A stretch of 64,000 bases of DNA from an uncultured Bacilli bacterium (GTDB taxonomy: Bacteria > Bacillota_I > Bacilli_A > RF39 > UBA660), in the NCBI GenBank assembly GCA_944359055.1, contig CALVSO010000001.1:37460-101459 (forward strand). The letters run 5' to 3'. The notes beneath the pieces are model-generated. The model searched no databases and was not told the origin of the DNA. It was given only the letters and a program-made list of their open reading frames with translations. Made by a program: the position numbers and the translations under genes. Positions 6,405 through 27,148 of this stretch are shown here, piece after piece; positions within the stretch are counted from its first letter, which is position 1; the number at the start of each line of letters is the position of its first letter.

Positions 6405-7475
6405 TTAGTTTTTTCTTTTTTTAAATAAATTAAGAGAAAATTTACTTTTATCATGTTCAATAATTATATTAGTTTTTAAAACAAATATTAAAACTAATAA
6501 CATTAAAATTCCATATAATAGATATCCTAATTTATTGTCTATTAATACATAAACAATAGAAGCTAGAGCAAATAAAGAATCAATAAAACATATTATTAAT
6601 ACTGTTTTTCTATGGGAAAAATTCATGTTTAGTAGTTGATGATGAATATGAAATTTATCTGGTTTAGTAATACTTTCATTTTTTAAGTATCTTCTTATTA
6701 TAGCAAATATAGTATCTAGAAAAGGAATTGCTAATATCGTAAATGGAATAATAATAGAAGTCATTGTAACGTTTTTAAATCCTAGAAGTGCAATAACACT
6801 TATTATAAAACCTAAAAACATAGAACCAGTATCGCCCATAAATATTGAAGCAGGATTAGCATTATATTTTAAGAATCCTAAACAAGACCCTAACATAATA
6901 AAACATAATATAAAATCTAATCCTTGTGTATGTTTAAAAATAGCAATACTTCCAACTGTTAAGAAAAATATACTACTAATACCTGTTGCTAGTCCATCTA
7001 AACCATCAATTAAATTCATGCAATTTATAAATGCAAGAATAAAAATTATTGTTACTAAATAAGATAAAATTCCAAAATCAATGTATATTCCAAATGCACT
7101 CATACTTGATAATAATATTTTTCCATAAAACACTACAACTAATGTTGCTGCAATTTGACCACATAATTTTACTTTGGCACTTAATGGCTTTATATCATCG
7201 ATTATACCAGTAATTATAATAATAAAACTTCCTATTAAAATTGAATTCATAACATCAGTATGTTTTCCAAATACCATATAACCAAATAAGAATCCGGCAT
7301 AAATAGCTAAGCCACCTAATCGTGGTATTGGAACTTTATGAACCTTTCTTTCATTTGGAATATCCAATGCTCCAACATGATTTGCTATTTTCTTTACAAT
7401 AGGTACCATTAAATATACAAATAGGTAACAGGTTAATGTTACTAATAATACTTGAATAAAAATTTCGTTTGACAT
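6405..7475 (-). CDS. tagO: Undecaprenyl-phosphate N-acetylhexosamine-1-phosphate transferase (TagO/WecA/MraY family), probable initiating transferase
   Basis: About 11 TM segments. Motifs IIDDIKPLSA, NCMNLIDGLDGLATGIS and FMGDTGSMFLGF are typical of MraY/WecA-family polyprenyl-phosphate HexNAc-1-P transferases. Confidence 0.85.
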   Translation of the reverse strand: MSNEIFIQVLLVTLTCYLFVYLMVPIVKKIANHVGALDIPNERKVHKVPIPRLGGLAIYAGFLFGYMVFGKHTDVMNSILIGSFIIIITGIIDDIKPLSAKVKLCGQIAATLVVVFYGKILLSSMSAFGIYIDFGILSYLVTIIFILAFINCMNLIDGLDGLATGISSIFFLTVGSIAIFKHTQGLDFILCFIMLGSCLGFLKYNANPASIFMGDTGSMFLGFIISVIALLGFKNVTMTSIIIPFTILAIPFLDTIFAIIRRYLKNESITKPDKFHIHHQLLNMNFSHRKTVLIICFIDSLFALASIVYVLIDNKLGYLLYGILMLLVLIFVLKTNIIIEHDKSKFSLNLFKKRKN

Positions 7476-7652
7476 CTTAACACCTCTATTAATAATTTTA
7501 TCAAATTTTTACATTTTAGTCTATATAATTGTTAAATGTTAATTATAATTAAAAAAAATAATTAAAATTAGTAAAATAATGTAAATAGTCTTTTAATATT
7601 AAAGAAAATATTATATAATTAGATTAATGGAATATTAGTGAGGAGAGATGTA

Positions 7653-8615
7653 ATGAAGACATATTTAATTACTGGAGGAGCTGGTTTTATTGGCTCAACT
7701 CTAGCAGATAAATTATTAGAAATGGGTAACAGAGTGGTTGTAATTGATAATTTTTGTGATTTTTACGATCCAAAATATAAAGAAAAGAACATAAAAGAAA
7801 GTTTAAAAAATAAAAATTATTCTTTGTATAGAGTGGATATTAGAAATTATTTAGAATTAGAAAAAGCTTTTAAAGAAAATAATGTTGATTGTATAGTCCA
7901 TTTGGCAGCTATGGCAGGTGTTCGCCCTTCAATAGAAAATCCTATTTTATATCAAGAAGTAAATGGATTAGGCACACAAAATATTTTAGAAATAGCTAAA
8001 AAATATTCAGTAAAAAATTTAGTTATGGCTTCTTCAAGTAGTGTTTATGGTAATTGCGATAAGGTTCCTTTTAAGGAAGATTTTATAGTTGATTATGCTA
8101 TAAGTCCATATGCTGCAACAAAAAAAAGTAATGAAGTTATGGCACATGTTTATCATAAATTATTTAACATGAATATAATCATGCTAAGATTTTTTACAGT
8201 TTATGGTCCAAAACAAAGACCGGATTTAGCTATTAATAAATTTACGAGATTAATGTTAGAAGATAAAGAAATACCAATGTATGGTGATGGTTCTACATCT
8301 AGAGATTATACTTATGTTGATGATATAGTTGATGGAATTATAAAATCAACAGAGTATGTTTTCAATAATGATAATGTTTATGAAATAATTAATATTGGTA
8401 ATTCAACTCCAATTTCATTAAAAGAGATGATTGACATTATTGGTGAGGTTTTAGGAGTAACACCTAAAATTGAACAATTACCTATGCAGCCAGGTGATGT
8501 TGAACGAACTTATGCTGATATAAGTAAAGCAAAAGAACTATTGAATTATGCCCCTAAAACTTCATTTAAAGAAGGAATTAAAAAATTTGTTGAATGGCAT
8601 TTAAAACAAAAATAG
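7653..8615 (+). CDS. NAD-dependent sugar-nucleotide epimerase (UDP-glucuronate 4-epimerase-like, SDR family)
   Basis: TGGAGFIGS Rossmann motif, YAATK catalytic Y-x3-K, and overall GalE/Cap1J-like layout. ATG at 7653 lies 6 nt after GAGGAGAG. The track ORF begins at GTG 7638. Confidence 0.8.
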   Translation: MKTYLITGGAGFIGSTLADKLLEMGNRVVVIDNFCDFYDPKYKEKNIKESLKNKNYSLYRVDIRNYLELEKAFKENNVDCIVHLAAMAGVRPSIENPILYQEVNGLGTQNILEIAKKYSVKNLVMASSSSVYGNCDKVPFKEDFIVDYAISPYAATKKSNEVMAHVYHKLFNMNIIMLRFFTVYGPKQRPDLAINKFTRLMLEDKEIPMYGDGSTSRDYTYVDDIVDGIIKSTEYVFNNDNVYEIINIGNSTPISLKEMIDIIGEVLGVTPKIEQLPMQPGDVERTYADISKAKELLNYAPKTSFKEGIKKFVEWHLKQK

Positions 8616-8627
8616 ACGGAGATTATT

Positions 8628-9620
8628 ATGAAATTAGGAATATTCAAAGAATTTAATAATAAGCATCAAAATTATATTGATGCATGTAACGAATTAAAAG
8701 TTGATTACGAAATTATTGATATATATGCTGACAATTGGATTGAAATTATTAAGAATAGTGATTGTGATGGTTTTTTGGTTCGTCCAAGTTGTGATAAACA
8801 AGATTGGAAGAATATGTATGATGAAAGATTATATTTTATTACAAAATATTTAAACAAAAAAATATATCCATCATATGATGAATGTTATATTTATGAAAGC
8901 AAAAACAGAATGTTTTATTGGCTTGAAGCAAATGGTTTTCCACATGTAGAAACTCATGTTTTTTATGATAAGAATGAAGCATTAAATTTTTTAAACAAAT
9001 GTGAGTATCCATTAGTATACAAGCCAAATTTGGGTAGTTCTTGTGTTGGCATCAAATTTGTTAATAATTATAAAGAAGGGAAAAAACTTGTTAATAAGGC
9101 CTTTCCTTATAAAGGGCTTGGAATGGGTATGATAAAAAAATATAAAACAAGATATAAATTTATAAATCGCCCAGCATTAGATGATAGACAATATAATTAT
9201 ATTATGTTTCAAAAAAAAGAAGATGTAGTTGCAGAGTGGCGAATAATAAAAATAGGAAATTCATTCTTTGGACACCAAAAATTAATTGATAAAAAAGGTT
9301 TTCATAGTGGTGCAGGAATTGGTGCTATTTGGCGAAAACCACCAAAAAAACTATTAGATTTATGCGATAGTATTTGTTCAAAAGGTAATTTTTATTCTAT
9401 GGCTTGTGATATATTTGAAACAAAAGAAAAAAAATATTATGTTAATGAATTACAGACAACCTTTGGATCATATGCTGAATCACAGATGATTATTGACAAT
9501 AAACCAGGAAGATATATTAAAAAGAATAATGATTATATTTTTCAAGAAGGTATTTTTAATAGACATGGAAGCTATTTGTTAAGAGTCGAACATTTTGTTG
9601 AAATTTTGAAAAACAAGTAG
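8628..9620 (+). CDS. ATP-grasp fold protein (RimK-like carboxylate-amine ligase candidate)
   Basis: Central region PLVYKPNLGSSCVGIKFV...AEWRIIKIGNSFFGHQK resembles the ATP-grasp nucleotide-binding core. Assignment rests on weak motif-level similarity only. Confidence 0.45.
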   Translation: MKLGIFKEFNNKHQNYIDACNELKVDYEIIDIYADNWIEIIKNSDCDGFLVRPSCDKQDWKNMYDERLYFITKYLNKKIYPSYDECYIYESKNRMFYWLEANGFPHVETHVFYDKNEALNFLNKCEYPLVYKPNLGSSCVGIKFVNNYKEGKKLVNKAFPYKGLGMGMIKKYKTRYKFINRPALDDRQYNYIMFQKKEDVVAEWRIIKIGNSFFGHQKLIDKKGFHSGAGIGAIWRKPPKKLLDLCDSICSKGNFYSMACDIFETKEKKYYVNELQTTFGSYAESQMIIDNKPGRYIKKNNDYIFQEGIFNRHGSYLLRVEHFVEILKNK

Positions 9621-9640
9621 ATAAATTGTGTTATTGGTAG

Positions 9641-9830: not shown

Positions 9831-9852
9831 ATGAAAGAGGATAGATATTTAA

Positions 9853-10767
9853 ATGTTAACAAAAAAAATAATTAAAATAATAAAAAAACCTAAAAAAATA
9901 ATAATTTTTTTGGCCTCAAAAGGAATTATTCCGTATAATGATGAAAAATATTTAAAATATGTATATAAAGAAAAAACTGGTGATGATTTAAATTTGGATA
10001 ACCCTAAAAACTTTACAGAGAAGCTTCAATGGTTAAAGTTATTTGATAGGAATCCATTATATACAAAATTGGTTGATAAATATGAAGTTAGAGACTATGT
10101 AAAAAAATTAATAGGAGAAAAATATTTAATACCATGTTTAGGAGTTTATGATAATGTTAATGAAATAGATTTTGAACAATTGCCTAATCAATTTGTTTTA
10201 AAAACAACACATGATTCTGGAACTGTTGTTATATGTAAAAATAAAAAAAATTTTGACATATCAAAAGCAAAAAAGTTTTTAAGTAAAAGATTAAAAAGAA
10301 AATATTTTTATTTGTGGAGAGAATGGCCTTATAAAGATGTAAAACCTCGTATAATTGCAGAAAAATATATGGAAGATAAAATATATAAAGGTATTAATGA
10401 TTATAAATTTTATTGTTTTAATGGAGAACCTAAGATTATGTTTATAATATTAGAAAGGAATATAAAGCCTAAGATGTCCTTTTATGATATGAACTTTAAT
10501 AAATTAGATATGCACCAAACATTTCCTGATTATAATAAAAAAATAGAAAAACCTAAAAATTTTGAAAAAATGATTCAGTTCTGTAAAATTTTAGGTAAAA
10601 AATTTTCTCATGTAAGGATTGATTTTTATGAATGTAATGATCAACTTTATTTTGGAGAATTAACTTTTTTTGATAGTGCAGGTTTTGATAAATTTTCACC
10701 AGATGTGTATAATGATATTTTAGGTGAATGGATAGATTTAGAAAGAGTTAATAAATATAATCATTAA
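9853..10767 (+). CDS. TupA-like ATP-grasp protein (teichuronopeptide-type amino acid ligase family)
   Basis: The hallmark N-terminal block NPKNFTEKLQWLKLFDRNPLYTKLVDKYEVRDYV and downstream LPNQFVLKTTHDSGTVVICK...WPYKDVKPRIIAEKYM match the ATPgrasp_TupA family. Confidence 0.75.
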   Translation: MLTKKIIKIIKKPKKIIIFLASKGIIPYNDEKYLKYVYKEKTGDDLNLDNPKNFTEKLQWLKLFDRNPLYTKLVDKYEVRDYVKKLIGEKYLIPCLGVYDNVNEIDFEQLPNQFVLKTTHDSGTVVICKNKKNFDISKAKKFLSKRLKRKYFYLWREWPYKDVKPRIIAEKYMEDKIYKGINDYKFYCFNGEPKIMFIILERNIKPKMSFYDMNFNKLDMHQTFPDYNKKIEKPKNFEKMIQFCKILGKKFSHVRIDFYECNDQLYFGELTFFDSAGFDKFSPDVYNDILGEWIDLERVNKYNH

Positions 10768-10811
10768 ATTTATTAATTTAAGTAATTGAAAATCTCCCTA
10801 AATTAGAAAGA

Positions 10812-11927
10812 TTGGTGTTAATATTGAAAAAAATTTTATTTGTTATTGGTAGCCTACAAATAGGTGGGGCGGAGACTGTTATGGTAGATATTTTAAATAA
10901 TATTTATAAAGATTTTGATATAACAGTTTTATTAATTGAAAAACGTGGAGAGTTGTTAAAAAGTATATCGCCTAATATAAAATTGAAATATTTAACTAAA
11001 GGTGATGAATTTTGTAAATCTTCATTAGAAAAATTTTATAATAAAGTTAAACGAAGTTTAATTTATAGATATTTTGGTAAAAGCAAATTGTATGTAAATT
11101 ATGTATATAAAAAAATTTTAAAAACTAAATATGATACGGAAATTGCTTTTTTAGCTGGGTTACCTTCTAATCTTGTTAAAATGAGTCCAAATAATAGTCA
11201 AAAAATAGTTTGGATACATGCTAGTGTTACTAAAGATGATGTGACAACATATGAAAAATATTCAACTATTTGTAATTCTTTTGATAAGATAATAGGTGTT
11301 AGTGAATCATGTATTAATATTTTTGAAGAAACGTTTCCTGAAAGTAAAGGAAAAATTGAACTAATTCATAATTATGTTGATATAAATAAAATTATAAATA
11401 AATCAAATTTGGAAAACATTTCATTTGATTCAGATAAATTAAACATTTTATCAATTGGAAGAATTGTATCAGAAAAAGGTTTTGATAGAATTATAAATAT
11501 TGCCAAAAAATATGAAAATAAAATAAATTTTTATATTATAGGTGATGGACCATTAAAAGATAAGTTGATGCATAGTTTGGTAGAACAAAAAATTAATAAT
11601 GTTATTTTTTTAGGACTAAAGAAAAATCCTTATCCATATATAAAAAAATGTGATGCTTTTTTACTCAGTTCACGTAGTGAAGCTTATCCGACTGTTGTAA
11701 TTGAGGCAATGGTTTTAAATAAAAGTATTATAGCAACAGATGTTCCAGGGGTTAGTGAAATTTTGAAAGAATATTTAGATAAATTAATTATTCCTAATTT
11801 AGATAATAGTATTGATGAAGGTTTAAATATATGGTTAAGCAGAAAAAATAATAATAAAAATTTAACTAATAATTTTAAAAAAATAAACGATGACAATTTA
11901 AGAAAAGTAAAAAAATTATTTGAGTAG
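10812..11927 (+). CDS. Glycosyltransferase family 4 (GT-B, group 1)
   Basis: N-terminal GSLQIGGAETVMVDIL and C-terminal EAYPTVVIEAMVLNKSIIATDVPGVSEIL (the E-x7-E region). The likely start is the in-frame TTG at 10824 (MKKILFVIG). Confidence 0.85.
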   Translation: MVLILKKILFVIGSLQIGGAETVMVDILNNIYKDFDITVLLIEKRGELLKSISPNIKLKYLTKGDEFCKSSLEKFYNKVKRSLIYRYFGKSKLYVNYVYKKILKTKYDTEIAFLAGLPSNLVKMSPNNSQKIVWIHASVTKDDVTTYEKYSTICNSFDKIIGVSESCINIFEETFPESKGKIELIHNYVDINKIINKSNLENISFDSDKLNILSIGRIVSEKGFDRIINIAKKYENKINFYIIGDGPLKDKLMHSLVEQKINNVIFLGLKKNPYPYIKKCDAFLLSSRSEAYPTVVIEAMVLNKSIIATDVPGVSEILKEYLDKLIIPNLDNSIDEGLNIWLSRKNNNKNLTNNFKKINDDNLRKVKKLFE

Positions 11928-11937
11928 GGTGATTAAC

Positions 11938-15546: not shown

Positions 15547-15553
15547 TTTTTGT

Positions 15554-17275: not shown

Positions 17276-17278
17276 TTT

Positions 17279-18226: not shown

Positions 18227-18352
18227 AATATAGCATACGTATCTTAAAAATTGTTTGGTGTATAAGTGAATTTTAGTATTTAATATTTCAATAAATATAC
18301 TAATATTTATTAAGATGATTTTTTTGGTAAATAGCTAGTTTGAGGTGATTTT

Positions 18353-20553: not shown

Positions 20554-21488
20554 GTGGATATATTGAATTTGGTGGTTTAATTAATAAGCCTTATCATAAA
20601 AATTGTCTTGATTTTAATAGTTCAAGAAATGCATTAAAGTATTTTATAAGATTTAATAAAATTAAAAAAATTTATTTACCAATTTATTTGTGTGAAGTGG
20701 TTTATAGAGCTTGTGTAGATGAAAAATGTGATATTGTTTTATACCATATCGATAAAGATTTTATGCCTATACTTGATGATTATGATGGCTACTCATATAT
20801 TTATTTAGTTAATTATTATGGATTGATTTCAAATGATAAAATAAAAAAGATGATGAATAAATATAAAAATTTAATAGTAGATAATACTCATTCTTTTTTT
20901 CAAAAGCCAGTAACAAATTCTATATATAATTGCAGAAAATATTTTGGAGTTGCTGACGGAGCATATTTATATAGTAACATTAAAAAAAATGATGAAATAG
21001 AACCCTATGTTGTTAATGATAAAATAGGACATTTAATAGGACGATTAGAAGAAAATGCAGCCACTTATTATACTGAATTTTCTAATAACGATAAAAAATT
21101 TGATAAAGGTAATATTTATAAAATGTCAAATTTTTCTAAGATTATAATGGGAGCTATTGATTATAAAAGTTCTTATAAAATAAGAATAGATAATTTTAAT
21201 TATTTAAATGAAAAATTAAAAAAGTTTCAGAAATTATCTTTACCTAATAATTTAACTTTTATGTATCCTTTATATGTTGATGAAGGAAAAAAAGTAAGAG
21301 ATTATTTAATTTCTAAAAAAATATATATACCTAAATTGTGGCCTAATATTGTTGAAGAAAACAATTTAAGTAAAATAGAATTAGAATATATAAATAATAT
21401 TTTGCCATTGCCAATTGATCAACGATATTCTAAAGAAGATATGGACTTTATTATAAGTAGTTTGGAGGAAATTTGTGAAGAAGTATAA
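20541..21488 (+). CDS. Hypothetical protein, possibly a degenerate PLP-fold (DegT-like) protein
   Basis: It is translationally coupled (13-nt overlap) within the sugar-modification module. There is weak resemblance to the DegT N-terminal region (NSSRNALKYFIRFNKIKKIYLPIYLCEVV), but no clear catalytic-Lys motif. Confidence 0.35.
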   Translation: MQEIGGYIEFGGLINKPYHKNCLDFNSSRNALKYFIRFNKIKKIYLPIYLCEVVYRACVDEKCDIVLYHIDKDFMPILDDYDGYSYIYLVNYYGLISNDKIKKMMNKYKNLIVDNTHSFFQKPVTNSIYNCRKYFGVADGAYLYSNIKKNDEIEPYVVNDKIGHLIGRLEENAATYYTEFSNNDKKFDKGNIYKMSNFSKIIMGAIDYKSSYKIRIDNFNYLNEKLKKFQKLSLPNNLTFMYPLYVDEGKKVRDYLISKKIYIPKLWPNIVEENNLSKIELEYINNILPLPIDQRYSKEDMDFIISSLEEICEEV

Positions 21489-22770
21489 TGTATTAATTTT
21501 TCCAGCAGGTGGAGAAAATGCTATAAATATTCATGATTCGTTAAAATATAATATTCATTTTAATTTATTTGGAGCTTCTTCTTTAGTTGATTATGGTAAA
21601 GAATTATATCCTAAATCTAATTATTGTATTGAAAATTTATATATATCTGATGAGAATTTTATAAATCGTTTTAATTGTTTAATTAATAAATTTCAAATAG
21701 ATTTGATAATTCCAACTCATGATACTATAGCATTATTTTTAATGGAAAATGAAAAAAACATAAATGCCAAAATAGTTTGCTCTCCACTTGAAACCACAAG
21801 AATTGCTCATAGTAAGAAATTGATTTTTGATAATTTAAAAAATAAATTTTATTGTCCAAAAATTTATAATAATATTGATGAAGTTAAAGATTATCCTGTT
21901 TTTTTAAAGCCAAATATTGGAGCTGGAGGAAAAGGAACATATTTAGCTAAAGATTATGAAGAACTATCTTTAAAACTAAGCTCAAATAATGATTTAGTAA
22001 TATGTGAAAATTTACCTGGTGATGAAATTACAGTAGATTGTTTCACTAATTTTAAAAGACAATTATTATTTGTTGGCCCAAGAACAAGAAAAAGAATTAC
22101 TATGGGAATTTCTTTTGAATCAAAAACAATTCCTCTTTCTGAAGAAATAGAAAAAATAGCTATAGATTTAAACAATACATTTGTATTTAGAGGAGCTTGG
22201 TTTTTTCAGTTAAAGAGAGATATTAATGGAAAATATAAATTAATGGAATTTTCTGTTAGACAAGCAGGGACAATGGCCTTGTATCGTACGTTAGGAATCA
22301 ATTTCGCACTTTTATCATTGTTTGATGCATTAGAATTAGATACAAATATTTTATATAATAAATATGATTTAACTTTAAGTAGACGTTTAAAAAATTCTTA
22401 TAATTTAAATTTTTCTTATGATAATATTTATATTGATTTTGATGATACTTTAATTATAAATAATAAAGTTAATTCAAAAGCTATGGCTTTTATTTATCAA
22501 TGTTTAAATAAAAATAAAAAAATTTATTTAATATCAAAGCATAGTACTAATATTTATGATTCATTAAAAAAATATAAAATAGATAAGTCAATTTTTGATG
22601 AAATAATAATTATAAATGAATTAGATAGTAAATCAGATTTTATTAAACATAAAAAAGCTATATTTATTGATAATTATTATAAAGAAAGAAAAGAAGTTTT
22701 TGAAAAAAAACATATTCCTGTATTTGATGTTGATGTGATAGAAAATTTGATTGATTATTCTGATATTTAA
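21475..22770 (+). CDS. ATP-grasp domain protein fused to a C-terminal HAD-like hydrolase domain
   Basis: ATP-grasp core YPVFLKPNIGAGGKGTYLAKDYEEL...ITVDCF...WFFQLKRDINGKYKLMEFSVRQAG. HAD motif I IYIDFDDTLI is in the C-terminal third. Confidence 0.65.
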   Translation: MKKYNVLIFPAGGENAINIHDSLKYNIHFNLFGASSLVDYGKELYPKSNYCIENLYISDENFINRFNCLINKFQIDLIIPTHDTIALFLMENEKNINAKIVCSPLETTRIAHSKKLIFDNLKNKFYCPKIYNNIDEVKDYPVFLKPNIGAGGKGTYLAKDYEELSLKLSSNNDLVICENLPGDEITVDCFTNFKRQLLFVGPRTRKRITMGISFESKTIPLSEEIEKIAIDLNNTFVFRGAWFFQLKRDINGKYKLMEFSVRQAGTMALYRTLGINFALLSLFDALELDTNILYNKYDLTLSRRLKNSYNLNFSYDNIYIDFDDTLIINNKVNSKAMAFIYQCLNKNKKIYLISKHSTNIYDSLKKYKIDKSIFDEIIIINELDSKSDFIKHKKAIFIDNYYKERKEVFEKKHIPVFDVDVIENLIDYSDI

Positions 22771-22783
22771 GGAGTGACTAAAT

Positions 22784-23881
22784 TTGAATAAAATTAATGT
22801 AACAAGATCTTCAATGCCAACATTTGAAGAATATATAAATGAAATAAAACCACTTTGGGATTCAAGATGGCTAACTAATTGTGGAATTTTGCACAATGAA
22901 TTAGAAGAACAATTAGAAAAATATTTAAATGTTAAAAATGTTTCTTTATTTAATAATGGACATTTAGCACTATATACTGCTATTAATAGTTTAGATTTAA
23001 AAGGAGAAGTTATAACAACACCATTTACTTTTGTTTCTACAACTAATGCAATTGTTCAAAATAATTTAAAACCTGTTTTTTGTGATATTAATGAAGAAGA
23101 TTATACAATTGATGTAGATAAAATTGAACAACTGATAACTGATAAGACAAGTGCTATAGTGGCAGTTCATGTTTATGGTAATGTTTGTAATGTAGATAAA
23201 ATAGAAAAAATTGCAAAAAAACATAATTTAAAAGTAATATATGATGCTGCACATGCATTTGGTGTTGAGTATAATGGAAAAACTATTGGCAATTATGGTG
23301 ATATATCAATGATGAGCTTTCATGCTACAAAAGTTTTTCATACTATAGAAGGTGGAGCATTATTATACAATTCAAATATAAAAGAAAAAATAAAAAGTTT
23401 AAGAAATTTTGGTATTATAAATCAAGAGGAATGTGAATATATAGGGATGAATACCAAAATGAGTGAATTTCATGCAGCTATGGGAATATGTAATTTGAGA
23501 CATATTGATGAAGAAATATTAAAAAGAAAAAAAATAGTTGAAAGATATCAAGAAAAATTAAAAGATATTCCAGGAATAAAATGTTGGCAAAAGCAAAAAA
23601 ATGTAAAAGCTAATTATATTTATTTTCCTATTTATATTGATGAAAAAAAATATGGAATATCAAGAGATTTATTATTCGAAAAATTAAAAGAAAAAGGAAT
23701 AATTGCTAGAAAATATTTTTATCCGTTAGTAACAGATTTTAAATGTTACAAAAATTATGCTTCAAATACGCCAATTGCTAAAAAAATAGCTAATGGTATT
23801 TTAACTTTACCCTTGTATTCAGATTTAAATTTTGATCAAGTTGATTATATTTGTGATATAATAAAGATGAAAGGAAAGTAG
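22784..23881 (+). CDS. DegT/DnrJ/EryC1/StrS-family PLP-dependent sugar aminotransferase
   Basis: Conserved SFHATKVFHTIEGGALL (PLP-lysine region) and the N-terminal layout. TTG start 9 nt after AAGGAG. Confidence 0.85.
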   Translation: MNKINVTRSSMPTFEEYINEIKPLWDSRWLTNCGILHNELEEQLEKYLNVKNVSLFNNGHLALYTAINSLDLKGEVITTPFTFVSTTNAIVQNNLKPVFCDINEEDYTIDVDKIEQLITDKTSAIVAVHVYGNVCNVDKIEKIAKKHNLKVIYDAAHAFGVEYNGKTIGNYGDISMMSFHATKVFHTIEGGALLYNSNIKEKIKSLRNFGIINQEECEYIGMNTKMSEFHAAMGICNLRHIDEEILKRKKIVERYQEKLKDIPGIKCWQKQKNVKANYIYFPIYIDEKKYGISRDLLFEKLKEKGIIARKYFYPLVTDFKCYKNYASNTPIAKKIANGILTLPLYSDLNFDQVDYICDIIKMKGK

Positions 23882-23883
23882 TT

Positions 23884-24750
23884 ATGAAAGGAATAATTTT
23901 AGCTGGTGGTAAAGGAACTAGGTTATACCCAATGACTAAATCAGTTTCTAAACAACTTTTGCCACTTTATGATAAACCAATGATATATTATCCATTATCA
24001 GTATTGCTTTTAGCAGAAATAAAAGAAATATTGATTATATCTACGCCTGACGATATTGATGATTATAAAAAACTTTTAGGTGATGGATCAAATATTGGAG
24101 TTAAATTTACTTATGCTATTCAAGAAAAACCAAAAGGTTTAGCAGATGCTTTTATAATTGGAGAAAAATTTATTGGTAAAGATAATGTATGTTTAATTTT
24201 AGGTGATAATATTTTTTATGGAAGTAATCTTTCAGAAATTTTAGCTAATGCTCAAAAAAACAAAGGTGCTACTATTTTTGCTTGTACTGTTAAAGATCCA
24301 AAATCTTTTGGTGTTATAGAATTAGATAAAAATAGAAATATTATTTCAATTGAAGAAAAACCACAAAATCCTAAATCTAATTTAGCGATTCCAGGTTTAT
24401 ATTTTTATGATAATACTGTTATTGAAAAAGCTAAAAATGTAAAACCTTCCCCAAGAGGTGAAATAGAAATTACTGCAATTAATGAAGCTTATTTAAAAGA
24501 AAATAATCTTAATGTGAGCATGATGGGAAGAGGAATAGCATGGTTAGATACTGGAACACCTCAAAATTTGTTAAAAGCAGCTGAATTTGTTGAAGCTATT
24601 CAATCGAGACAAGGATATTATATTTCTTGCATTGAAGAAATAGCTTGGAGAAAAAAATTTATTTCAAATGAAAAATTAAAAGAAATAGGTGAACAATTAA
24701 AAATGACAGATTATGGTAAATATCTATTATCTTTATTAGAGGAGGAGTAG
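23884..24750 (+). CDS. rmlA: Glucose-1-phosphate thymidylyltransferase
   Basis: MKGIILAGGKGTRLYPMT...GLADAF...GDNIFYG are canonical RmlA motifs. Confidence 0.9.
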   Translation: MKGIILAGGKGTRLYPMTKSVSKQLLPLYDKPMIYYPLSVLLLAEIKEILIISTPDDIDDYKKLLGDGSNIGVKFTYAIQEKPKGLADAFIIGEKFIGKDNVCLILGDNIFYGSNLSEILANAQKNKGATIFACTVKDPKSFGVIELDKNRNIISIEEKPQNPKSNLAIPGLYFYDNTVIEKAKNVKPSPRGEIEITAINEAYLKENNLNVSMMGRGIAWLDTGTPQNLLKAAEFVEAIQSRQGYYISCIEEIAWRKKFISNEKLKEIGEQLKMTDYGKYLLSLLEEE

Positions 24751-24751
24751 T

Positions 24752-25762
24752 ATGAAAGTATTAGTAACAGGAGGAGCTGGATTTATTGGTAGCAATTTTT
24801 TACACTATATGGTAAATAAGTATCCAGAATATTATTTCGTATGTTATGATGCATTAACTTATGCAGGAAACTATGAAAATTTATCTTATATATTGGATAA
24901 AACTAATTTTGAATTTGTAAAAGGTGATATAACTAACAAAGAGGAAGTAGAAAAATTATTTCAAGAAAACAATTTTGATTGGGTAATTAATTTTGCTGCT
25001 GAAAGCCATGTGGATAATTCTATTAAAAATCCAAGTGTCTTTTTGAAAACAAATATTATAGGTACCCAGATTTTAATGGATGCTTCTAGAAAATATGGAA
25101 TTAAAAGGTATCACCAAATATCTACTGATGAAGTTTATGGAGATTTACCTTTAGATAAAAAAGAATTGAAATTTAAAGAAACAACACCTATTAAGACATC
25201 TAGTCCTTATTCAGCTTCTAAAGCTTCAGCTGATTTATTGGTTTTGGCATATATAAGAACTTATGGTTTCCCAGCAACAATTTCAAGATGTTCAAATAAT
25301 TATGGGCCATATCAATTTCCAGAAAAATTAATTCCTGTAGTAATAAGCAAAGCTTTAAAAAATGAAAATATTCCAGTTTATGGTAACGGATTAAATGTTA
25401 GGGATTGGATATATGTTAAAGATCATAATATAGCAGTAGATTTAATTATGCATAAAGGAAAAATTGGTGAAGTTTATAATATAGGCGGAAATAGTGAAAA
25501 GTCTAATATTGATTTAGTTAAAATAATTTTAAAAGAGTTAAATAAATCGGAAGAATTAATTACATTTGTAAAAGATAGAGCTGGTCATGATATGAGATAT
25601 GCTATTGATTCTTCAAAAATAGAAAAAGAATTAGGCTGGAAAAGAACTGTTAACTTTGAAGAAGGTATTGTTAAAACTATTAAATGGTATTTAGATAATC
25701 AAGTATGGATAAACAATATTGAAAATGGTTCATATAAAGATTTTTATAAGGAGGTAAAATAA
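24752..25762 (+). CDS. rmlB: dTDP-glucose 4,6-dehydratase
   Basis: VTGGAGFIGSNF...YSASKASADLLV (Y-x3-K). RmlB-like length and order after rmlA. Confidence 0.9.
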   Translation: MKVLVTGGAGFIGSNFLHYMVNKYPEYYFVCYDALTYAGNYENLSYILDKTNFEFVKGDITNKEEVEKLFQENNFDWVINFAAESHVDNSIKNPSVFLKTNIIGTQILMDASRKYGIKRYHQISTDEVYGDLPLDKKELKFKETTPIKTSSPYSASKASADLLVLAYIRTYGFPATISRCSNNYGPYQFPEKLIPVVISKALKNENIPVYGNGLNVRDWIYVKDHNIAVDLIMHKGKIGEVYNIGGNSEKSNIDLVKIILKELNKSEELITFVKDRAGHDMRYAIDSSKIEKELGWKRTVNFEEGIVKTIKWYLDNQVWINNIENGSYKDFYKEVK

Positions 25763-25763
25763 T

Positions 25764-27086
25764 ATGAAAATAGCAGTAGCAGGTACAGGATATGTAGGTT
25801 TAGTCACAGGAGTTGCTTTAGCACATATTGGCCATAATGTTAAGTGTGTTGATGTAGATGAAAAGAAAATTGAATTGATGAAAAGTGGTAAAAGTCCGAT
25901 ATATGAAAAAGATTTAGAAGAATTAATGTTAAAAAACAAAAAAAGATTAGATTATACGACAGATTATAAAGAAGCATATAAAGATGCAGAAATAATAATT
26001 ATTGGTGTTGGAACACCAGAAAGAGCAGACGGCTCAGCTAATTTAGATTATGTATATAGTGTATGTGAGCAAATAGCTGAAGTTTTAGAAAATGATTGTG
26101 TGGTTGTTGTAAAATCAACTGTCCCAATTGGAACTAATGATAATGTTGAAAAATATTTAAAGGAACATGTTAAAAACAATTTAAATATCTATGTTGCAAG
26201 CAATCCAGAGTTCTTAGCTCAAGGAACTGCGGTTAGAGATACATTATATGCTTCTAGAATAGTTATTGGTACAGAAGATGATAAAGCAAAAGAAATACTA
26301 ACAAAAATGTATGAACCATTGACAAAAGATCCATATAATGTACCATTTTTAGCTACAAATAGAAGAAGTGCTGAAATGATAAAATATGCGTCTAATGATT
26401 TTTTAGCTTTAAAAATTTCTTATGTTAATGAAATTGCAAATTTATGTGAAAAATTAGGCGCTAATATAGAAGACGTTACTAAAGGTATGGGTTTAGATAG
26501 TAGAATAGGTAATAAATTTTTAAATGCCGGAATTGGTTATGGAGGAAGTTGTTTCCCAAAAGATACAAAAGCTTTACATTGGCTAAGTGTTAGTGAAGGT
26601 GTTGAGTTAAAAACAGTAAAGGCATGTATTGAAGTTAATAAGGCTCAAAAAATTAAATTATATGAAAAATTACATAATGATATTCCTGATTTAAAAGGTA
26701 AAACAATAGCAGTTTTGGGATTAACATTTAAACCTGGAACAGATGATCTTCGTGAAGCACCTTCAATAGATAACATTGAATTATTGCTTGATGCTGGGGC
26801 TAATATAAAAGCATATGACCCAGTAGGAATTGAAAATTTTAAAAAGAAAATAGCTTATAAACTAGAACAAGATGGAATAACTGGTACTATAAATTATTTT
26901 AATAATATAGATGATGCTATTGAAAATGCAGATGCTACTTTAATAATGACAGAGTGGTCTGACATAAAAAATTATGATATTAATAAATATAAAAAATTAA
27001 TGAAAAATCCTTTAATCTATGATGGAAGAAATTGTTATTCTTTAAGTGCTATGAATGGACTTACATATAAATCAATTGGTAGATAA
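25764..27086 (+). CDS. ugd: UDP-glucose 6-dehydrogenase
   Basis: MKIAVAGTGYVGLV...GYGGSCFPKDTKAL (catalytic Cys) ...LGLTFKPGTDDLREAPS. Confidence 0.9.
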   Translation: MKIAVAGTGYVGLVTGVALAHIGHNVKCVDVDEKKIELMKSGKSPIYEKDLEELMLKNKKRLDYTTDYKEAYKDAEIIIIGVGTPERADGSANLDYVYSVCEQIAEVLENDCVVVVKSTVPIGTNDNVEKYLKEHVKNNLNIYVASNPEFLAQGTAVRDTLYASRIVIGTEDDKAKEILTKMYEPLTKDPYNVPFLATNRRSAEMIKYASNDFLALKISYVNEIANLCEKLGANIEDVTKGMGLDSRIGNKFLNAGIGYGGSCFPKDTKALHWLSVSEGVELKTVKACIEVNKAQKIKLYEKLHNDIPDLKGKTIAVLGLTFKPGTDDLREAPSIDNIELLLDAGANIKAYDPVGIENFKKKIAYKLEQDGITGTINYFNNIDDAIENADATLIMTEWSDIKNYDINKYKKLMKNPLIYDGRNCYSLSAMNGLTYKSIGR

Positions 27087-27114
27087 TTTTTAAAAATATT
27101 ATAGAAAATGTACT

Positions 27115-27148
27115 AAAAATCAATAATTGTAAAAATTATTGATTTTTA
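27115..27148 (+). terminator. Rho-independent terminator ending the polysaccharide operon
   Basis: Perfect 13-bp stem AAAATCAATAATT-gtaaa-AATTATTGATTTT followed by T/A-rich sequence. Confidence 0.7.

What the first reader, a model, noticed from the sequence alone, without database searches (positions are those of the whole stretch)
6405..27148. Wzx/Wzy-type polysaccharide locus (~20 kb) predicted to build a uronic-acid- and amino-sugar-containing, amino-acid-decorated polymer
The gene set is: a divergent TagO/WecA-type initiating transferase; NAD epimerase plus UDP-glucose 6-dehydrogenase (the UDP-GlcA/GalA route); rmlA and rmlB without rmlC/rmlD, plus a DegT aminotransferase (a dTDP-4-keto-6-deoxyglucose to dTDP-amino-dideoxyhexose route); three ATP-grasp enzymes (one TupA-like, one fused to HAD); a WbqC-like protein; GT4 and GT2 transferases; an Alg13/Alg14 pair; a CE4 deacetylase; and Wzx plus Wzy. 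There is no Wzz/Wzc/CpsBCD chain-length or tyrosine-kinase module. ATP-grasp ligases co-located with uronic-acid genes echo the teichuronopeptide (TupA) paradigm, in which amino acids or peptides are amide-linked to uronic acids. This is an uncommon chemistry for capsules.
Basis: inference. Interest (0 to 1): 0.6.

Follow-up and report, generated by a model that had tools for sequence, protein, structure and literature searches.

The report
Surface sugar-polymer gene cluster, amino-acid decorated
This is an intact, strain-variable 20-kb gene cluster for a cell-surface sugar polymer in an uncultured gut Firmicute; such clusters are ordinary, but this one carries widespread, unstudied enzymes that probably attach amino acids to a rare amino sugar.

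Summary

Three items need adding:
- The Wzy-like domain is fused to two GT4 glycosyltransferases in one 1202-1208 aa protein.
- The uncalled ORF 20541-21488 is a divergent DegT-like PLP protein.
- A truncated PglC-type transferase lies at 27187-27426.

The uronic-acid route and the dTDP-4-amino-4,6-dideoxyglucose route are both supported.

The amide-forming enzymes fall into two modules. Epimerase, ATP-grasp and TupA-like ATP-grasp sit at the 5' end, where uronic-acid amidation is plausible by analogy with C. jejuni Cj1438C. WbqC, the DegT-like protein and the ATP-grasp/HAD-like fusion belong to a cassette (GT2-Wzx-[ATP-grasp or WbqC]-DegT-like-X-DegT-RmlA-RmlB) found in at least 570 species.

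E. coli O123 carries the WbqC plus DegT-like pair and makes Qui4N-D-alanyl-3-hydroxybutanoyl. O49 lacks the pair and lacks the alanine. So this module most likely aminoacylates the amino sugar rather than the uronic acid.

A co-occurring strain has a teichoic-acid-type locus at the same site, next to the same tagO-like gene, which suggests a wall polymer.

Amino-acid-decorated glycans are well known. This is a new member of a known kind, of moderate interest.

The parts
6405..7475 (-). WecA/TagO-type polyprenyl-phosphate HexNAc-1-phosphate transferase (initiating enzyme), transcribed divergently from the operon
   Evidence: PF00953 at 4.1e-38. TIGR02380 wecA scores 159.8 bits, below its cut-off of 326. 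About 11 TM segments. It is the only locus gene shared with the alternative teichoic-acid-type locus of strain L093: 83% nt identity, phmmer 2e-198.
7638..8615 (+). NAD-dependent SDR epimerase, probably UDP-glucuronate 4-epimerase (UDP-GlcA to UDP-GalA)
   Evidence: PF01370 at 5.5e-56. Best solved relatives are 5u4q (2.3e-78) and B. cereus UDP-GlcA 4-epimerase 6zl6/6zla (6.3e-59). No NCBIfam equivalog cut-off is reached.
8628..9620 (+). ATP-grasp ligase of a small unnamed family ('AG330'); substrate unknown
   Evidence: Weak matches to CPSase_L_D2 (4.7e-5) and PRK12767 (8.5e-9). PDB matches to D-Ala-D-Ala ligase, glutathione synthase and cyanophycin synthase are only at E of 0.009 or worse. 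The family has 725 representatives at E<=1e-3. In 45 metagenomic loci it sits mostly beside GT4 genes.
9853..10767 (+). TupA-like ATP-grasp, candidate uronic-acid C6 amidoligase
   Evidence: PF14305 at 1.7e-69, covering 1-240 of 241 profile positions. The characterised member of this fold, Cj1438 C-terminal domain, amidates GlcA (PMC11800379). Among related loci, 3 of the 4 with a TupA-like gene also have UGDH, against 15 of 80 overall.
10812..11927 (+). GT4 glycosyltransferase
   Evidence: PF00534 at 8.9e-27. Best NCBIfam matches are PglJ and TuaC, both below cut-off.
11920..15546 (+). Fusion protein: Wzy/O-antigen-ligase-like membrane domain (residues 1-460) plus two GT4 glycosyltransferase domains. 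Other assemblies call the start at 11938 (1202 aa).
   Evidence: PF13425 at 6.8e-38 over residues 10-456, and PF00534 twice (4.3e-48). All hydrophobic segments lie within residues 15-460. The same architecture is called in independent assemblies. The 90%-identity cluster has 42 members of about 1202 aa.
15536..16339 (+). Membrane-anchored CE4 polysaccharide N-deacetylase (PgaB/IcaB-like), predicted to act outside the membrane
   Evidence: PF01522 at 7.1e-19. PgaB and IcaB models match below cut-off. One N-terminal TM segment at residues 10-28.
16347..16811 (+). PssD/Cps14F (Alg14-like) glycosyltransferase subunit
   Evidence: NF041549 PssD scores 187.7 bits, above its cut-off of 110. PF08660.
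16808..17275 (+). PssE/Cps14G (Alg13-like) glycosyltransferase catalytic subunit
   Evidence: NF041548 PssE scores 138.4 bits, above its cut-off of 120. PF04101.
17279..18226 (+). GT2 glycosyltransferase, first gene of the conserved amino-sugar cassette; inferred transferase for the acylated Qui4N
   Evidence: PF00535 at 5e-25. A GT2-Wzx pair precedes the WbqC/ATP-grasp plus DegT-like genes in many of the 80 related loci.
18353..19813 (+). Wzx (MOP-family) flippase
   Evidence: PF13440 at 5.5e-99. About 11 hydrophobic segments. Best NCBIfam matches (O-glycosylation Wzx, TuaB) are below cut-off.
19810..20553 (+). WbqC-family protein; biochemical function unknown, inferred first N-acyl/aminoacyl-transfer step on dTDP-Qui4N
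   Evidence: PF08889 at 2.2e-65. 7481 homologues; the 120 best are at least 59% identical, across phyla, and one source names a member 'glycine transferase'. AF2 model pLDDT 89, with no solved structural neighbour: Foldseek E at least 0.2, TM at most 0.32. In related loci it occupies the slot otherwise held by a ~405-aa ATP-grasp: 17 versus 44 of 80, never both. 34% identical to the WbqC of the E. coli O123 cluster.
20541..21488 (+). Divergent DegT-like PLP-fold protein ('315 family'), no Pfam model; inferred partner of WbqC/ATP-grasp in building the aminoacyl group
   Evidence: No Pfam or NCBIfam hit. At least 3477 homologues. hhalign against the window DegT: probability 85%, E 5.8e-6, 265 columns; invariant K133 aligns with the PLP lysine and D114 with the DAAH aspartate. 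31% identical (6e-47) to the 'hypothetical protein' next to WbqC in E. coli O123.
21475..22770 (+). ATP-grasp carboxylate-amine ligase (residues 1-300) fused to a small HAD-like domain (about 305-431)
   Evidence: PF15632 at 6.3e-13 and PF02655. AF2 pLDDT 91.7. Foldseek finds biotin carboxylase, PylC, 2pn1 and L-amino-acid ligases at about 1e-15. The C-terminal part has invariant DxDxT (D321, D323, T325), K386 and D399-N400, but no HAD model or solved HAD is matched. The family has at least 3659 members with the fusion kept.
22784..23881 (+). DegT/VioA-type aminotransferase (dTDP-4-keto-6-deoxyglucose to dTDP-4-amino-4,6-dideoxy-D-glucose)
   Evidence: PF01041 at 8.3e-101. Best solved match is DesI 2po3 at 3.8e-59. 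49% identity (2e-122) to the DegT of the E. coli O123 cluster. That DegT is 68-73% identical at the DNA level to annotated vioA genes.
23884..24750 (+). RmlA glucose-1-phosphate thymidylyltransferase
   Evidence: TIGR01207 scores 444.7 bits, above its cut-off of 360.65.
24752..25762 (+). RmlB dTDP-glucose 4,6-dehydratase
   Evidence: TIGR01181 scores 477.9 bits, above its cut-off of 365.1.
25764..27086 (+). UDP-glucose 6-dehydrogenase (UDP-GlcA supply)
   Evidence: All three UDPG_MGDP_dh domains. TIGR03026 scores 454 bits, above its cut-off of 189.8; TuaD scores 504 bits, below its cut-off of 700.
27187..27426 (+). Truncated 79-aa remnant of a PglC/WbaP-type phosphoglycosyl transferase (probable pseudogene)
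   Evidence: The ORF is listed. The same 79-aa product is called with PF02397 in identical assemblies L094, L097 and L098. A full-length enzyme of this type would overrun the next gene.

Best explanation
The region is a strain-variable biosynthetic locus for a cell-envelope heteropolysaccharide. It is initiated on undecaprenyl phosphate by the adjacent TagO/WecA-type enzyme and exported and polymerised by the Wzx/Wzy route. The host is an uncultured, spore-forming, low-GC gut Firmicute at or near Candidatus Faecisoma merdavium.

Shown by homology:
- UGDH plus a UDP-GlcA-4-epimerase-like SDR supply UDP-GlcA/GalA.
- RmlA, RmlB and a VioA/DesI-type DegT supply dTDP-4-amino-4,6-dideoxy-D-glucose (Qui4N).
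- Six transferase activities could build a repeat of up to about six sugars: TagO-like, three GT4 domains, PssD/E and GT2.
- A membrane-anchored CE4 enzyme can de-N-acetylate the polymer outside the cell.

Inferred: there are two separate amide-forming modules.
1. WbqC and the DegT-like PLP protein install an amino acid on the 4-amino group of dTDP-Qui4N. The ATP-grasp/HAD-like fusion then adds a second acyl residue to that amino acid, possibly from a phosphorylated acid that the HAD-like domain dephosphorylates. The cassette's own GT2 and Wzx handle the resulting bulky sugar.
2. The TupA-like ATP-grasp, perhaps with the neighbouring small ATP-grasp, amidates the C6 carboxylate of a GlcA/GalA residue of the lipid-linked intermediate, as Cj1438C does in C. 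jejuni.

No acetyltransferase is present, so the product may carry free amines beside carboxylates and be zwitterionic.

A sister strain has a teichoic-acid-type locus at the same site beside the same tagO-like gene. The polymer is therefore most likely a wall-anchored, teichuronic-acid-like secondary polymer, attached by an LCP enzyme encoded elsewhere. A free capsule is not excluded.
For: - Gene families.
- Epimerase relatives.
- DegT relatives.
- Conserved cassette in 80 of at least 570 species. The gene upstream of the DegT-like gene is an ATP-grasp in 44 loci and WbqC in 17, never both. The gene downstream is an ATP-grasp in 23, a GNAT in 21 and the ATP-grasp/HAD-like fusion in 7. DegT lies within 10 kb in 67 loci, RmlA in 47 and RmlB in 44, but UGDH in only 15 and TupA in 4.
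- Natural comparison in E. coli. O123 has rfbB-rfbA-wzx-DegT-WbqC-DegT-like-GNAT-MaoC and makes Qui4N acylated with N-[(S)-3-hydroxybutanoyl]-D-alanyl. O49 has vioA, a VioB-type acyltransferase and MaoC, lacks WbqC and the DegT-like gene, and makes Qui4N-3-hydroxybutanoyl. The clusters with O116- and O39-family wzx/wzy genes have vioA plus an acyltransferase only; their O-antigen structures were not looked up.
- The ATP-grasp fold of the fusion resembles PylC and the L-amino-acid ligases.
- A TupA-like fold catalyses GlcA amidation in C. jejuni, with a separate HAD phosphatase.
- In C. difficile, an ATP-grasp mutant loses the peptidylamido-Fuc3N of the flagellin glycan.
- Strain variation at the site.
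- The locus is intact and 99-100% conserved in several independent assemblies.
Against: - No enzyme here has been assayed, and the polymer has not been seen.
- WbqC has no known fold relative or mechanism.
- WbqC can occur without the DegT-like gene, as in C. botulinum L181, so the pair is not obligatory.
- The HAD assignment could not be confirmed by any profile.
- The product stereochemistry of the DegT is inferred. The DesI equivalog cut-off is not reached (299.5 bits against 650).
- The link between TupA-like genes and UGDH rests on 4 loci.
- The small ATP-grasp family shows little association with uronic-acid genes.
- No LCP ligase or chain-length regulator is in the window, so the final location of the polymer is open.
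Confidence: 0.6

Rival explanations
1. One reading: a capsule in which all three ATP-grasp enzymes attach amino acids or peptides to uronic acids (teichuronopeptide-like), with the amino sugar merely N-acylated in some ordinary way.
For: UGDH, an epimerase and a genuine TupA-like ATP-grasp are in the locus. TupA-like Cj1438C does amidate GlcA.
Against: In related genomes the ATP-grasp/HAD-like fusion, WbqC and the DegT-like gene travel with DegT-RmlA-RmlB, and mostly without UGDH (15 of 80) or TupA (4 of 80). E. coli O123 has the WbqC plus DegT-like pair and an aminoacylated Qui4N. No uronic acid appears in its repeat unit, and no UGDH in the part of its cluster that was read. The locus has no ordinary N-acyltransferase (VioB or GNAT) for the amino sugar.
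Confidence: 0.12
2. Same chemistry, but the product is a free capsule or exopolysaccharide rather than a wall-anchored teichuronic-acid-like polymer.
For: Wzx/Wzy loci commonly make capsules. No LCP ligase is in the window. None of the tua-operon equivalog cut-offs is reached.
Against: Initiation is by a TagO/WecA-type enzyme rather than a CpsE type, and the only CpsE/PglC-type gene is a 79-aa remnant. The CpsBCD/Wzc module typical of Gram-positive capsules is absent. A sister strain has a TagF/LicD/TagGH teichoic-acid-type locus at the same site beside the same tagO-like gene.
Confidence: 0.3
3. A protein O-glycosylation system. The PF13425 domain would act as an oligosaccharyltransferase (PglL/WsaB-like), putting the flipped oligosaccharide onto S-layer, flagellar or dockerin-bearing surface proteins instead of polymerising it.
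For: PF13425 and Wzy_C-type domains occur in O-oligosaccharyltransferases (own knowledge). The best NCBIfam match of the Wzx is an 'O-glycosylation flippase' model at 313.7 bits. Acylated amino-dideoxyhexoses decorate C. difficile flagellin. Dockerin and cadherin-like surface proteins lie just upstream.
Against: The Wzx score is far below that model's cut-off of 720. No flagellin or S-layer gene is nearby. The site alternates with a teichoic-acid-type locus. The large number of transferases fits a repeat-unit polymer.
Confidence: 0.1
4. A C. jejuni HS:2-like scheme. The DegT-like PLP protein would make a phosphorylated amine (such as serinol phosphate or ethanolamine phosphate), the TupA-like enzyme would couple it to GlcA, and the HAD-like domain would remove the phosphate.
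For: The same four enzyme classes (DegT-family PLP enzyme, TupA-like ATP-grasp, HAD, UGDH) operate in that pathway.
Against: The DegT-like family is syntenic with DegT-RmlA-RmlB and an ATP-grasp or WbqC, not with TupA or UGDH. It is present in E. coli O123, whose repeat unit has no uronic amide. Its profile matches no solved structure at E<=1. The HAD-like domain is fused to a different ATP-grasp.
Confidence: 0.07

Closest known systems
E. coli O123/O186 (and Salmonella O58) O-antigen gene cluster, which makes Qui4N acylated with N-[(S)-3-hydroxybutanoyl]-D-alanyl
   Same: It has rmlB, rmlA, wzx, a VioA-type DegT (49% identical), WbqC (34%) and the DegT-like 'hypothetical protein' (31%) in one Wzx/Wzy cluster. 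Its product carries an amino acid amide-linked to Qui4N.
   Different: The E. coli cluster follows the pair with a GNAT and a MaoC dehydratase (for the 3-hydroxybutanoyl cap). This locus has an ATP-grasp/HAD-like fusion there instead. The part of the E. coli cluster that was read has no UGDH or TupA-like gene. It is a Gram-negative O-antigen ligated to lipid A-core.
C. jejuni HS:2 capsule amidation system (Cj1435-Cj1438; Cj1438 C-terminal TupA-like amidoligase)
   Same: A TupA-like ATP-grasp lies beside UGDH in a surface-polysaccharide locus. It provides ATP-dependent amide formation on the C6 carboxylate of a uronic acid already in the growing chain, and a HAD enzyme is part of the scheme.
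   Different: There the ATP-grasp is fused to a GT2, export is by ABC transporter, and the amines are serinol phosphate and ethanolamine phosphate made by dedicated PLP enzymes. Here the TupA-like protein stands alone, and the amine donor and the activity are untested.
C. difficile type B flagellin glycan locus (CDR20291_0241-0247)
   Same: In a Firmicute, RmlA/RmlB-derived amino-dideoxyhexose (Fuc3N) is N-acylated with a short peptide. An ATP-grasp gene is genetically required for the terminal peptidylamido sugar.
   Different: That is a protein O-glycan built by soluble GTs without Wzx/Wzy. It has a 3-amino sugar, uses a FemAB-like acyltransferase and an ornithine-cyclodeaminase-like enzyme, and has no WbqC or DegT-like partner.
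B. subtilis teichuronic acid (tua) operon and B. halodurans teichuronopeptide (TupA)
   Same: A phosphate-free, uronic-acid-containing wall polymer made with UGDH, a Wzx-like flippase, an O-antigen-ligase-like polymerase, GT4 and GT2, and dependent on TagO (own knowledge). The best NCBIfam matches of four genes are TuaB, TuaC, TuaD and TuaG. The TupA family is named after the teichuronopeptide gene.
   Different: All Tua matches are below the equivalog cut-offs. There is no TuaF-type chain-length protein. This locus adds an aminoacylated Qui4N branch, a deacetylase and extra ATP-grasps. Wall linkage is inferred only from the tagO-like gene and the alternative locus in a sister strain.
Treponema medium glycoconjugate (Fuc4N acylated with D-aspartyl, plus a mannuronic acid amide-linked to L-ornithine)
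   Same: A single polymer carries both kinds of decoration predicted here: an aminoacylated 4-amino-dideoxyhexose and an amino acid amide on a uronic acid. Treponema genomes carry the DegT-like cassette.
   Different: The genes for that polymer were not examined here. The organism, sugars and amino acids differ.

Membership tests
Wzx/Wzy-dependent polysaccharide pathway | MOP-family Wzx flippase in the locus | tested here: met
   PF13440 at 5.5e-99 and PF01943 at 1.6e-33; about 11 hydrophobic segments.
Wzx/Wzy-dependent polysaccharide pathway | Wzy-type polymerase (polytopic membrane protein with an O-antigen-ligase/Wzy domain) | tested here: met
   PF13425 at 6.8e-38 over residues 10-456 of the fusion protein; TM segments only in residues 15-460, with a large loop at 251-382. 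Whether it acts as a polymerase or a ligase/oligosaccharyltransferase cannot be tested with these tools.
Wzx/Wzy-dependent polysaccharide pathway | Polyprenyl-phosphate initiating transferase | tested here: met
   PF00953 WecA/TagO-type gene at 6405-7475. A second, PglC-type gene is only a 79-aa remnant.
Wzx/Wzy-dependent polysaccharide pathway | Chain-length regulator (Wzz, or Wzd/Wze/CpsBCD) | tested here: not met
   None among the locus ORFs or the other scanned ORFs of the window. It may be encoded elsewhere. The feature is common but not universal.
TupA-like ATP-grasp (PF14305) | Full-length match above the Pfam gathering score | tested here: met
   234.4 bits against a cut-off of 25, covering profile positions 1-240 of 241.
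TupA-like ATP-grasp (PF14305) | ATP-dependent amidation of a uronic-acid carboxylate (the activity shown for Cj1438C) | not testable with these tools
   Only context is available: UGDH and a UDP-GlcA-epimerase-like gene in the same operon, and 3 of 4 related loci with TupA also have UGDH.
WbqC-like family (PF08889) | Match above the gathering score | tested here: met
   221 bits against a cut-off of 21.3. 34% identity to the E. coli O123-cluster WbqC. The family has no assigned biochemical function.
DegT/DnrJ/EryC1/StrS sugar aminotransferases (gene 22784-23881) | PF01041 match, with the PLP lysine and aspartate motifs | tested here: met
   338 bits. The motifs 'DAAHAF' and 'SFHATK' are present in the sequence.
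DegT/DnrJ/EryC1/StrS sugar aminotransferases (gene 22784-23881) | Equivalog-level identity as dTDP-4-keto-6-deoxyglucose 4-aminotransferase giving the gluco (Qui4N) product | tested here: inconclusive
   The DesI model scores 299.5 bits against a cut-off of 650. Against that, the best solved match is DesI, and the protein is 49% identical to the O123 enzyme, whose cluster makes Qui4N.
DegT-like fold-type I PLP enzymes (gene 20541-21488) | Homology to DegT with a retained Schiff-base lysine | tested here: met
   hhalign probability 85%, E 5.8e-6, 265 co-linear columns. Invariant K133 and D114 align with the PLP lysine and aspartate. No Pfam or PDB sequence match, so this is a distant relative and not a member of PF01041.
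HAD phosphatase superfamily (residues about 305-431 of gene 21475-22770) | Four HAD motifs and a match to a HAD model or fold | tested here: inconclusive
   The motifs are invariant in the family: DxDxT (D321, D323, T325), K386 and D399-N400. Pfam HAD models match 1 of 30 members, weakly. The profile matches no solved structure. A domain-only fold search was not possible.
ATP-grasp carboxylate-amine ligases (gene 21475-22770, N-terminal part) | ATP-grasp fold | tested here: met
   PF15632 and PF02655. The AF2 model matches biotin carboxylase, PylC, 2pn1 and L-amino-acid ligases at about 1e-15, TM 0.5-0.75.
dTDP-L-rhamnose pathway | rmlC and rmlD present with rmlA and rmlB | tested here: not met
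   RmlA and RmlB are above cut-off. No RmlC or RmlD ORF is present, and there is no unassigned ORF of 100 aa or more in the locus. The dTDP branch therefore leads to the amino sugar.
B. subtilis teichuronic acid (tua) system | Equivalogs of TuaB, TuaC, TuaD and TuaG, a TuaE-type polymerase and a TuaF regulator | tested here: not met
   TuaB scores 168 bits (cut-off 580), TuaC 75 (550), TuaD 504 (700) and TuaG 90 (400). No TuaF-like gene. The resemblance is in overall logic, not orthology.

The most novel reading that the evidence does not exclude
WbqC, a fold with no solved relative, and the unnamed DegT-like PLP protein together form an uncharacterised machine that builds an aminoacyl group, possibly of D configuration, directly on dTDP-4-amino-4,6-dideoxyglucose. 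It works without an ATP-grasp and is interchangeable with a ~405-aa ATP-grasp in the same gene slot. WbqC would do the acyl transfer. The PLP protein would set the alpha-carbon, either by epimerising the sugar-bound amino acid or by transaminating a sugar-bound 2-oxoacyl group. The ATP-grasp/HAD-like fusion would then ligate a phosphorylated acid and remove its phosphate. If so, this window holds a compact example of a very widespread (at least 570 species) but biochemically unknown route to peptide-decorated, possibly zwitterionic, surface glycans of gut Firmicutes.
Probability: 0.35. Interest if true: 0.6.

Novelty: new member of a known kind. Interest (0 to 1): 0.38.

Why it matters
Surface glycans carrying free amines and carboxylates (zwitterionic polysaccharides) are strong immunomodulators, and this locus comes from a gut commensal lineage known only from metagenomes.

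The analysis also points to three very common but unstudied enzyme families: WbqC, the DegT-like '315' family, and the ATP-grasp/HAD-like fusion. It gives them a concrete, testable job, which is aminoacylation of dTDP-Qui4N. That assignment is backed by a natural gene-to-structure comparison in E. coli O123 versus O49.

Confirming it would fill a long-standing gap. The chemistry of amino-acid-bearing O-antigens has been known for decades, but the enzymes that add the amino acids to amino sugars are largely unassigned.

The locus itself is otherwise an ordinary strain-variable glycopolymer cluster.

Tried and rejected
- Confirming the HAD domain:
  - Pfam on 30 family members gave 1 weak hit.
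  - A profile of the C-terminal domain against the PDB gave none.
  - The assignment is left as inconclusive.
- The DegT-like protein against the PDB, by single sequence and by profile: no hit.
- TupA-like protein against the PDB: no solved relative by sequence.
- Metagenome scan with the single small ATP-grasp found nothing. The alignment-based scan found 410 relatives, but their contexts (mostly GT4 neighbours; UGDH 1 of 45, TupA 2 of 45) do not reveal a substrate.
- Looking for the E. coli O121 cluster, the namesake of WbqC (Qui4N-N-acetylglycyl), by DNA similarity:
  - It was not found.
  - The paper on S. dysenteriae type 7 Qui4N biosynthesis is not held.
- Literature searches for WbqC, ATP-grasp plus viosamine, and ATP-grasp plus dTDP found no biochemical characterisation.
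- The promoter/terminator scan is uninformative in this AT-rich DNA: 55 promoter-like sites against 46 expected.
- Base composition gives no sign of recent transfer: locus GC is 0.22-0.27, within the window range of 0.20-0.32.
- Considered and rejected:
  - D-Ala-D-Ala ligase paralogues, because all three ATP-grasps sit in glycan loci in other genomes.
  - A decaying locus, because the ORFs are intact and 99-100% conserved in independent assemblies.
  - A rhamnose locus, because there is no rmlC or rmlD.

Full report
**1. What is in the sequence**

Between 6405 and 27086 the window holds 18 closely packed or overlapping ORFs. One (6405-7475) is on the minus strand and 17 are on the plus strand, with gaps of at most 233 bp.
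- a WecA/TagO-type PF00953 transferase
- an SDR epimerase
- a weakly matching ATP-grasp (8628-9620)
- a full-length TupA-like ATP-grasp (PF14305, 1.7e-69)
- GT4 glycosyltransferases
- a CE4 deacetylase
- PssD and PssE, the Alg14/Alg13-like pair, both above the NCBIfam cut-offs
- a GT2
- Wzx
- WbqC
- an ATP-grasp with a C-terminal extension
- DegT
- RmlA and RmlB, both above equivalog cut-offs
- UDP-glucose 6-dehydrogenase

There is no rmlC or rmlD. No Wzz, Wzc, CpsBCD or LCP gene appears in any scanned ORF of the window.

Three things were missed or need correcting:
- **The Wzy fusion.** The Wzy-like domain (PF13425, 6.8e-38) is the N-terminal part of one protein of 1202-1208 aa, depending on the start codon chosen, that also carries two GT4 domains. 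All its hydrophobic segments lie in residues 15-460. The fusion is real: independent assemblies call it, and its 90%-identity cluster has 42 members of about 1202 aa.
- **A second PLP protein.** ORF 20541-21488 (315 aa) has no Pfam or NCBIfam match. It belongs to a family of at least 3477 proteins. Profile comparison with the window's DegT gives 85% probability, E 5.8e-6, over 265 co-linear columns. The family's invariant K133 and D114 fall on the PLP lysine and aspartate. It is a second, divergent DegT-like PLP protein.
- **A transferase remnant.** A 79-aa remnant of a PglC/WbaP-type transferase lies just after the operon, at 27187-27426.

**2. Host and setting**

The rest of the window is housekeeping: aminoacyl-tRNA synthetases behind T-box leaders, SMC, CTP synthase, topoisomerase, and SpoIIGA with a sigma factor. 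The host is therefore a spore-forming Firmicute with about 23% GC.

Clusters at 90% identity that contain the window's fusion protein and TupA-like protein include proteins of a Candidatus Faecisoma merdavium MAG. NCBI files that genus under Mycoplasmatota incertae sedis.

The locus is 99-100% identical in several independent metagenome assemblies.

In the same sample as one of these, a second contig (L093) shares the right flank at 96% identity (thioredoxin-like gene, DUF1003, Fur, rubrerythrin, SHMT, FolD) and the tagO-like gene at 83%. Otherwise it carries a TagF/LicD/TagGH-type teichoic-acid locus, and the Wzx/Wzy operon is absent. The site is thus a strain-variable envelope-glycopolymer locus anchored on a conserved TagO-type initiator.

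**3. Precursor routes**

- **Uronic acid.** UGDH has all three domains. The epimerase's close solved relatives include the B. cereus UDP-glucuronate 4-epimerase at 6.3e-59. This supports a UDP-GlcA/GalA supply.
- **Amino sugar.** The DegT's best solved match is DesI (3.8e-59). It is 49% identical (2e-122) to the DegT of the E. coli O123/O186 cluster, which in turn resembles annotated vioA genes. With RmlA and RmlB and no RmlC or RmlD, the dTDP branch most likely ends in dTDP-4-amino-4,6-dideoxy-D-glucose (Qui4N).

**4. Where the amide-forming enzymes belong**

I anchored a search on the DegT-like '315' family. It found relatives in at least 570 species-representative genomes, mostly Clostridia and Bacilli, with some Treponema, Bacteroidota and others.

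In the best 80 loci a cassette recurs: GT2 - Wzx - [ATP-grasp of ~405 aa or WbqC] - 315 - [ATP-grasp of ~430 aa, ATP-grasp/HAD-like fusion, GNAT or SDR] - DegT - RmlA - RmlB.

| Position relative to the 315 gene | Counts among 80 loci |
|---|---|
| Immediately upstream | ATP-grasp 44, WbqC 17, never both |
| Immediately downstream | ATP-grasp 23, GNAT 21, ATP-grasp/HAD-like fusion 7, SDR 7 |

Within 10 kb, DegT occurs in 67 loci, RmlA in 47 and RmlB in 44, but UGDH in only 15 and TupA-like genes in 4. WbqC, the 315 protein and the ATP-grasp/HAD-like fusion therefore belong to the amino-sugar branch.

E. coli supplies a natural experiment.

| Serogroup | Genes after vioA / DegT | Qui4N substituent |
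|---|---|---|
| O123/O186 | WbqC, 315 homologue (31% identical, 6e-47), GNAT, MaoC | N-[(S)-3-hydroxybutanoyl]-D-alanyl |
| O49 | VioB-type acyltransferase, MaoC; no WbqC or 315 | 3-hydroxybutanoyl directly on the sugar |
| O116-family and O39-family wzx/wzy clusters | acyltransferase only | not looked up here |

The extra alanine coincides with the extra WbqC plus 315 pair. This is correlation, not assay. C. botulinum has a WbqC-GNAT-DegT arrangement without a 315 gene, so the pair is not obligatory.

**5. The individual unknowns**

- **WbqC** is very conserved: the 120 best homologues, which span several phyla, are at least 59% identical. It models confidently (pLDDT 89) but has no significant neighbour among solved structures.
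- **The ATP-grasp/HAD-like fusion** is a conserved 431-aa architecture. Its N-terminal part is structurally an ATP-grasp ligase close to PylC, L-amino-acid ligases and biotin carboxylase. Its C-terminal 125 residues keep invariant DxDxT, K and DN motifs, but no HAD model or structure could be matched. The HAD assignment stays tentative.
- **The small ATP-grasp (8628-9620)** belongs to a modest family of 725 representatives. That family is found beside GT4 genes in polysaccharide loci and has no clear link to uronic-acid genes.
- **The TupA-like protein** is a solid family member. The one characterised enzyme with this fold, the C-terminal domain of C. jejuni Cj1438, amidates the C6 carboxylate of GlcA in the growing chain, and a HAD enzyme then removes a phosphate. 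Three of the four related loci with a TupA-like gene also have UGDH, against 15 of 80 overall.

**6. Proposed mechanism**

Steps resting on equivalog- or family-level homology:
- precursor synthesis
- initiation by the TagO/WecA-type enzyme
- up to five further glycosyl transfers (three GT4 domains, PssD/E, GT2)
- flipping by Wzx
- polymerisation by the Wzy-like domain
- de-N-acetylation outside the membrane by the membrane-anchored CE4 enzyme

Steps inferred from synteny and gene-to-structure correlation:
- WbqC and the 315 protein put an amino acid on the 4-amino group of dTDP-Qui4N.
- The ATP-grasp fusion extends it.
- The cassette's GT2 transfers the acylated sugar.

Step inferred by analogy: the TupA-like enzyme amidates a GlcA/GalA residue.

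Speculation:
- The PLP protein sets the alpha-carbon configuration, by epimerisation or by transamination of a 2-oxoacyl intermediate.
- The HAD-like domain dephosphorylates a phosphorylated acyl donor after ligation.

The locus has no acetyltransferase, so free amines may remain and the polymer may be zwitterionic.

**7. Location of the product**

Four observations favour a wall-anchored, teichuronic-acid-like secondary polymer:
- the TagO-type initiator
- the decayed PglC-type gene
- the absence of a CpsBCD module
- the teichoic-acid-type locus at the same site in a sister strain

No LCP ligase is in the window, and none of the tua equivalog cut-offs is met. A free capsule (about 0.3) or a protein O-glycan (about 0.1) therefore remains possible.

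**8. Comparison with what is known, and verdict**

The kind of chemistry is well documented:
- aminoacylated Qui4N, Fuc4N and Fuc3N, and uronic-acid amides, in many O-antigens
- a Treponema glycoconjugate that carries both decorations
- the C. difficile flagellin glycan
- the C. jejuni capsule

These are covered. The locus is therefore a new member of a known kind, not a new kind of system.

What lifts it above routine is that it contains three very common enzyme families with no assigned biochemistry. The comparative evidence gathered here gives them a specific, testable role. Literature searches in the held library found no characterisation of them.

Interest is moderate, at 0.38.

Noticed in passing
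window 27187-27426 (+): A 79-aa truncated PglC/WbaP-type 'bacterial sugar transferase' ORF sits between UGDH and the conserved flank, and the same product is called in identical assemblies. It is probably the decayed original initiating transferase of an imported cassette, which would leave the TagO-like enzyme as sole initiator.
   Followed up: partly
locus L093 (ENA ERZ24773294, contig NODE_2456) versus window 6443-7530 and 27558-31694: A co-occurring strain shares the right flank (96% nt) and the tagO-like gene (83% nt). In place of the Wzx/Wzy operon it carries a teichoic-acid-type locus: cytidylyltransferase/Fe-ADH fusion, GT2-LicD-GT4 fusion, LicD, a TagF-like gene and a TagGH-like ABC transporter.
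   Followed up: yes
window 5437-5880 and 5952-6296 (+); also L005 19265-20164: A PD-(D/E)XK transposase-like (PDDEXK_2) fragment at 5437-5880, and an adjacent short ORF with no Pfam match at 5952-6296, lie directly beside the tagO-like gene at the locus border. A full PDDEXK_2 gene also ends the Treponema brennaborense polysaccharide locus that carries the DegT-like cassette.
   Followed up: no
window 1828-3825, 49743-52480; taxonomy: The closest named relative (Ca. Faecisoma merdavium) is filed by NCBI under Mycoplasmatota incertae sedis. The window nevertheless encodes a dockerin-bearing protein, FtsW/SpoVE, SpoIIGA and a sporulation-type sigma factor, T-box leaders and a wall-polymer locus. 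This is a walled, probably spore-forming Firmicute.
   Followed up: partly
window 31557-32778 versus L093 13338-15756: Downstream of a tRNA gene (31557-31630) the window has a DUF3644 / EC042_2821 restriction-endonuclease-like gene. The sister strain has an unannotated gene plus an Abi_2 abortive-infection gene there instead. This looks like a small variable defence islet.
   Followed up: no
locus L181 (Clostridium botulinum MAG, GCA_028576315.1): There are two WbqC paralogues in one glycan island. One sits beside NeuB and a hexapeptide transferase (a nonulosonic-acid context). The other is arranged WbqC-GNAT-DegT...RmlA-RmlB with no DegT-like '315' gene, which shows that WbqC can work without that partner.
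   Followed up: partly
loci L100, L188, L183, L184 (E. coli O123/O186, O49, O116, O39 clusters): The O123 and O49 clusters differ in the Qui4N branch by WbqC plus the '315' hypothetical protein (and a GNAT in place of a VioB-type acyltransferase). Their O-antigens differ by one D-alanine between Qui4N and the 3-hydroxybutanoyl group. RefSeq still annotates the 315 homologue as 'hypothetical protein'.
   Followed up: yes
window 19810-20553 (WbqC model m66137c4b6eb8): The confident AF2 model (pLDDT 89) has no significant match among 350,542 solved chains. The best, non-significant hits are Rossmann-like nucleotide-binding proteins (ThiF/E1, NaMN adenylyltransferase) at TM 0.32 or less.
   Followed up: partly
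window 32995-33202 and 37626-37806 (+): Two T-box leaders scoring 112 bits precede the Glu/Gln-type and arginyl-tRNA synthetase genes.
   Followed up: no
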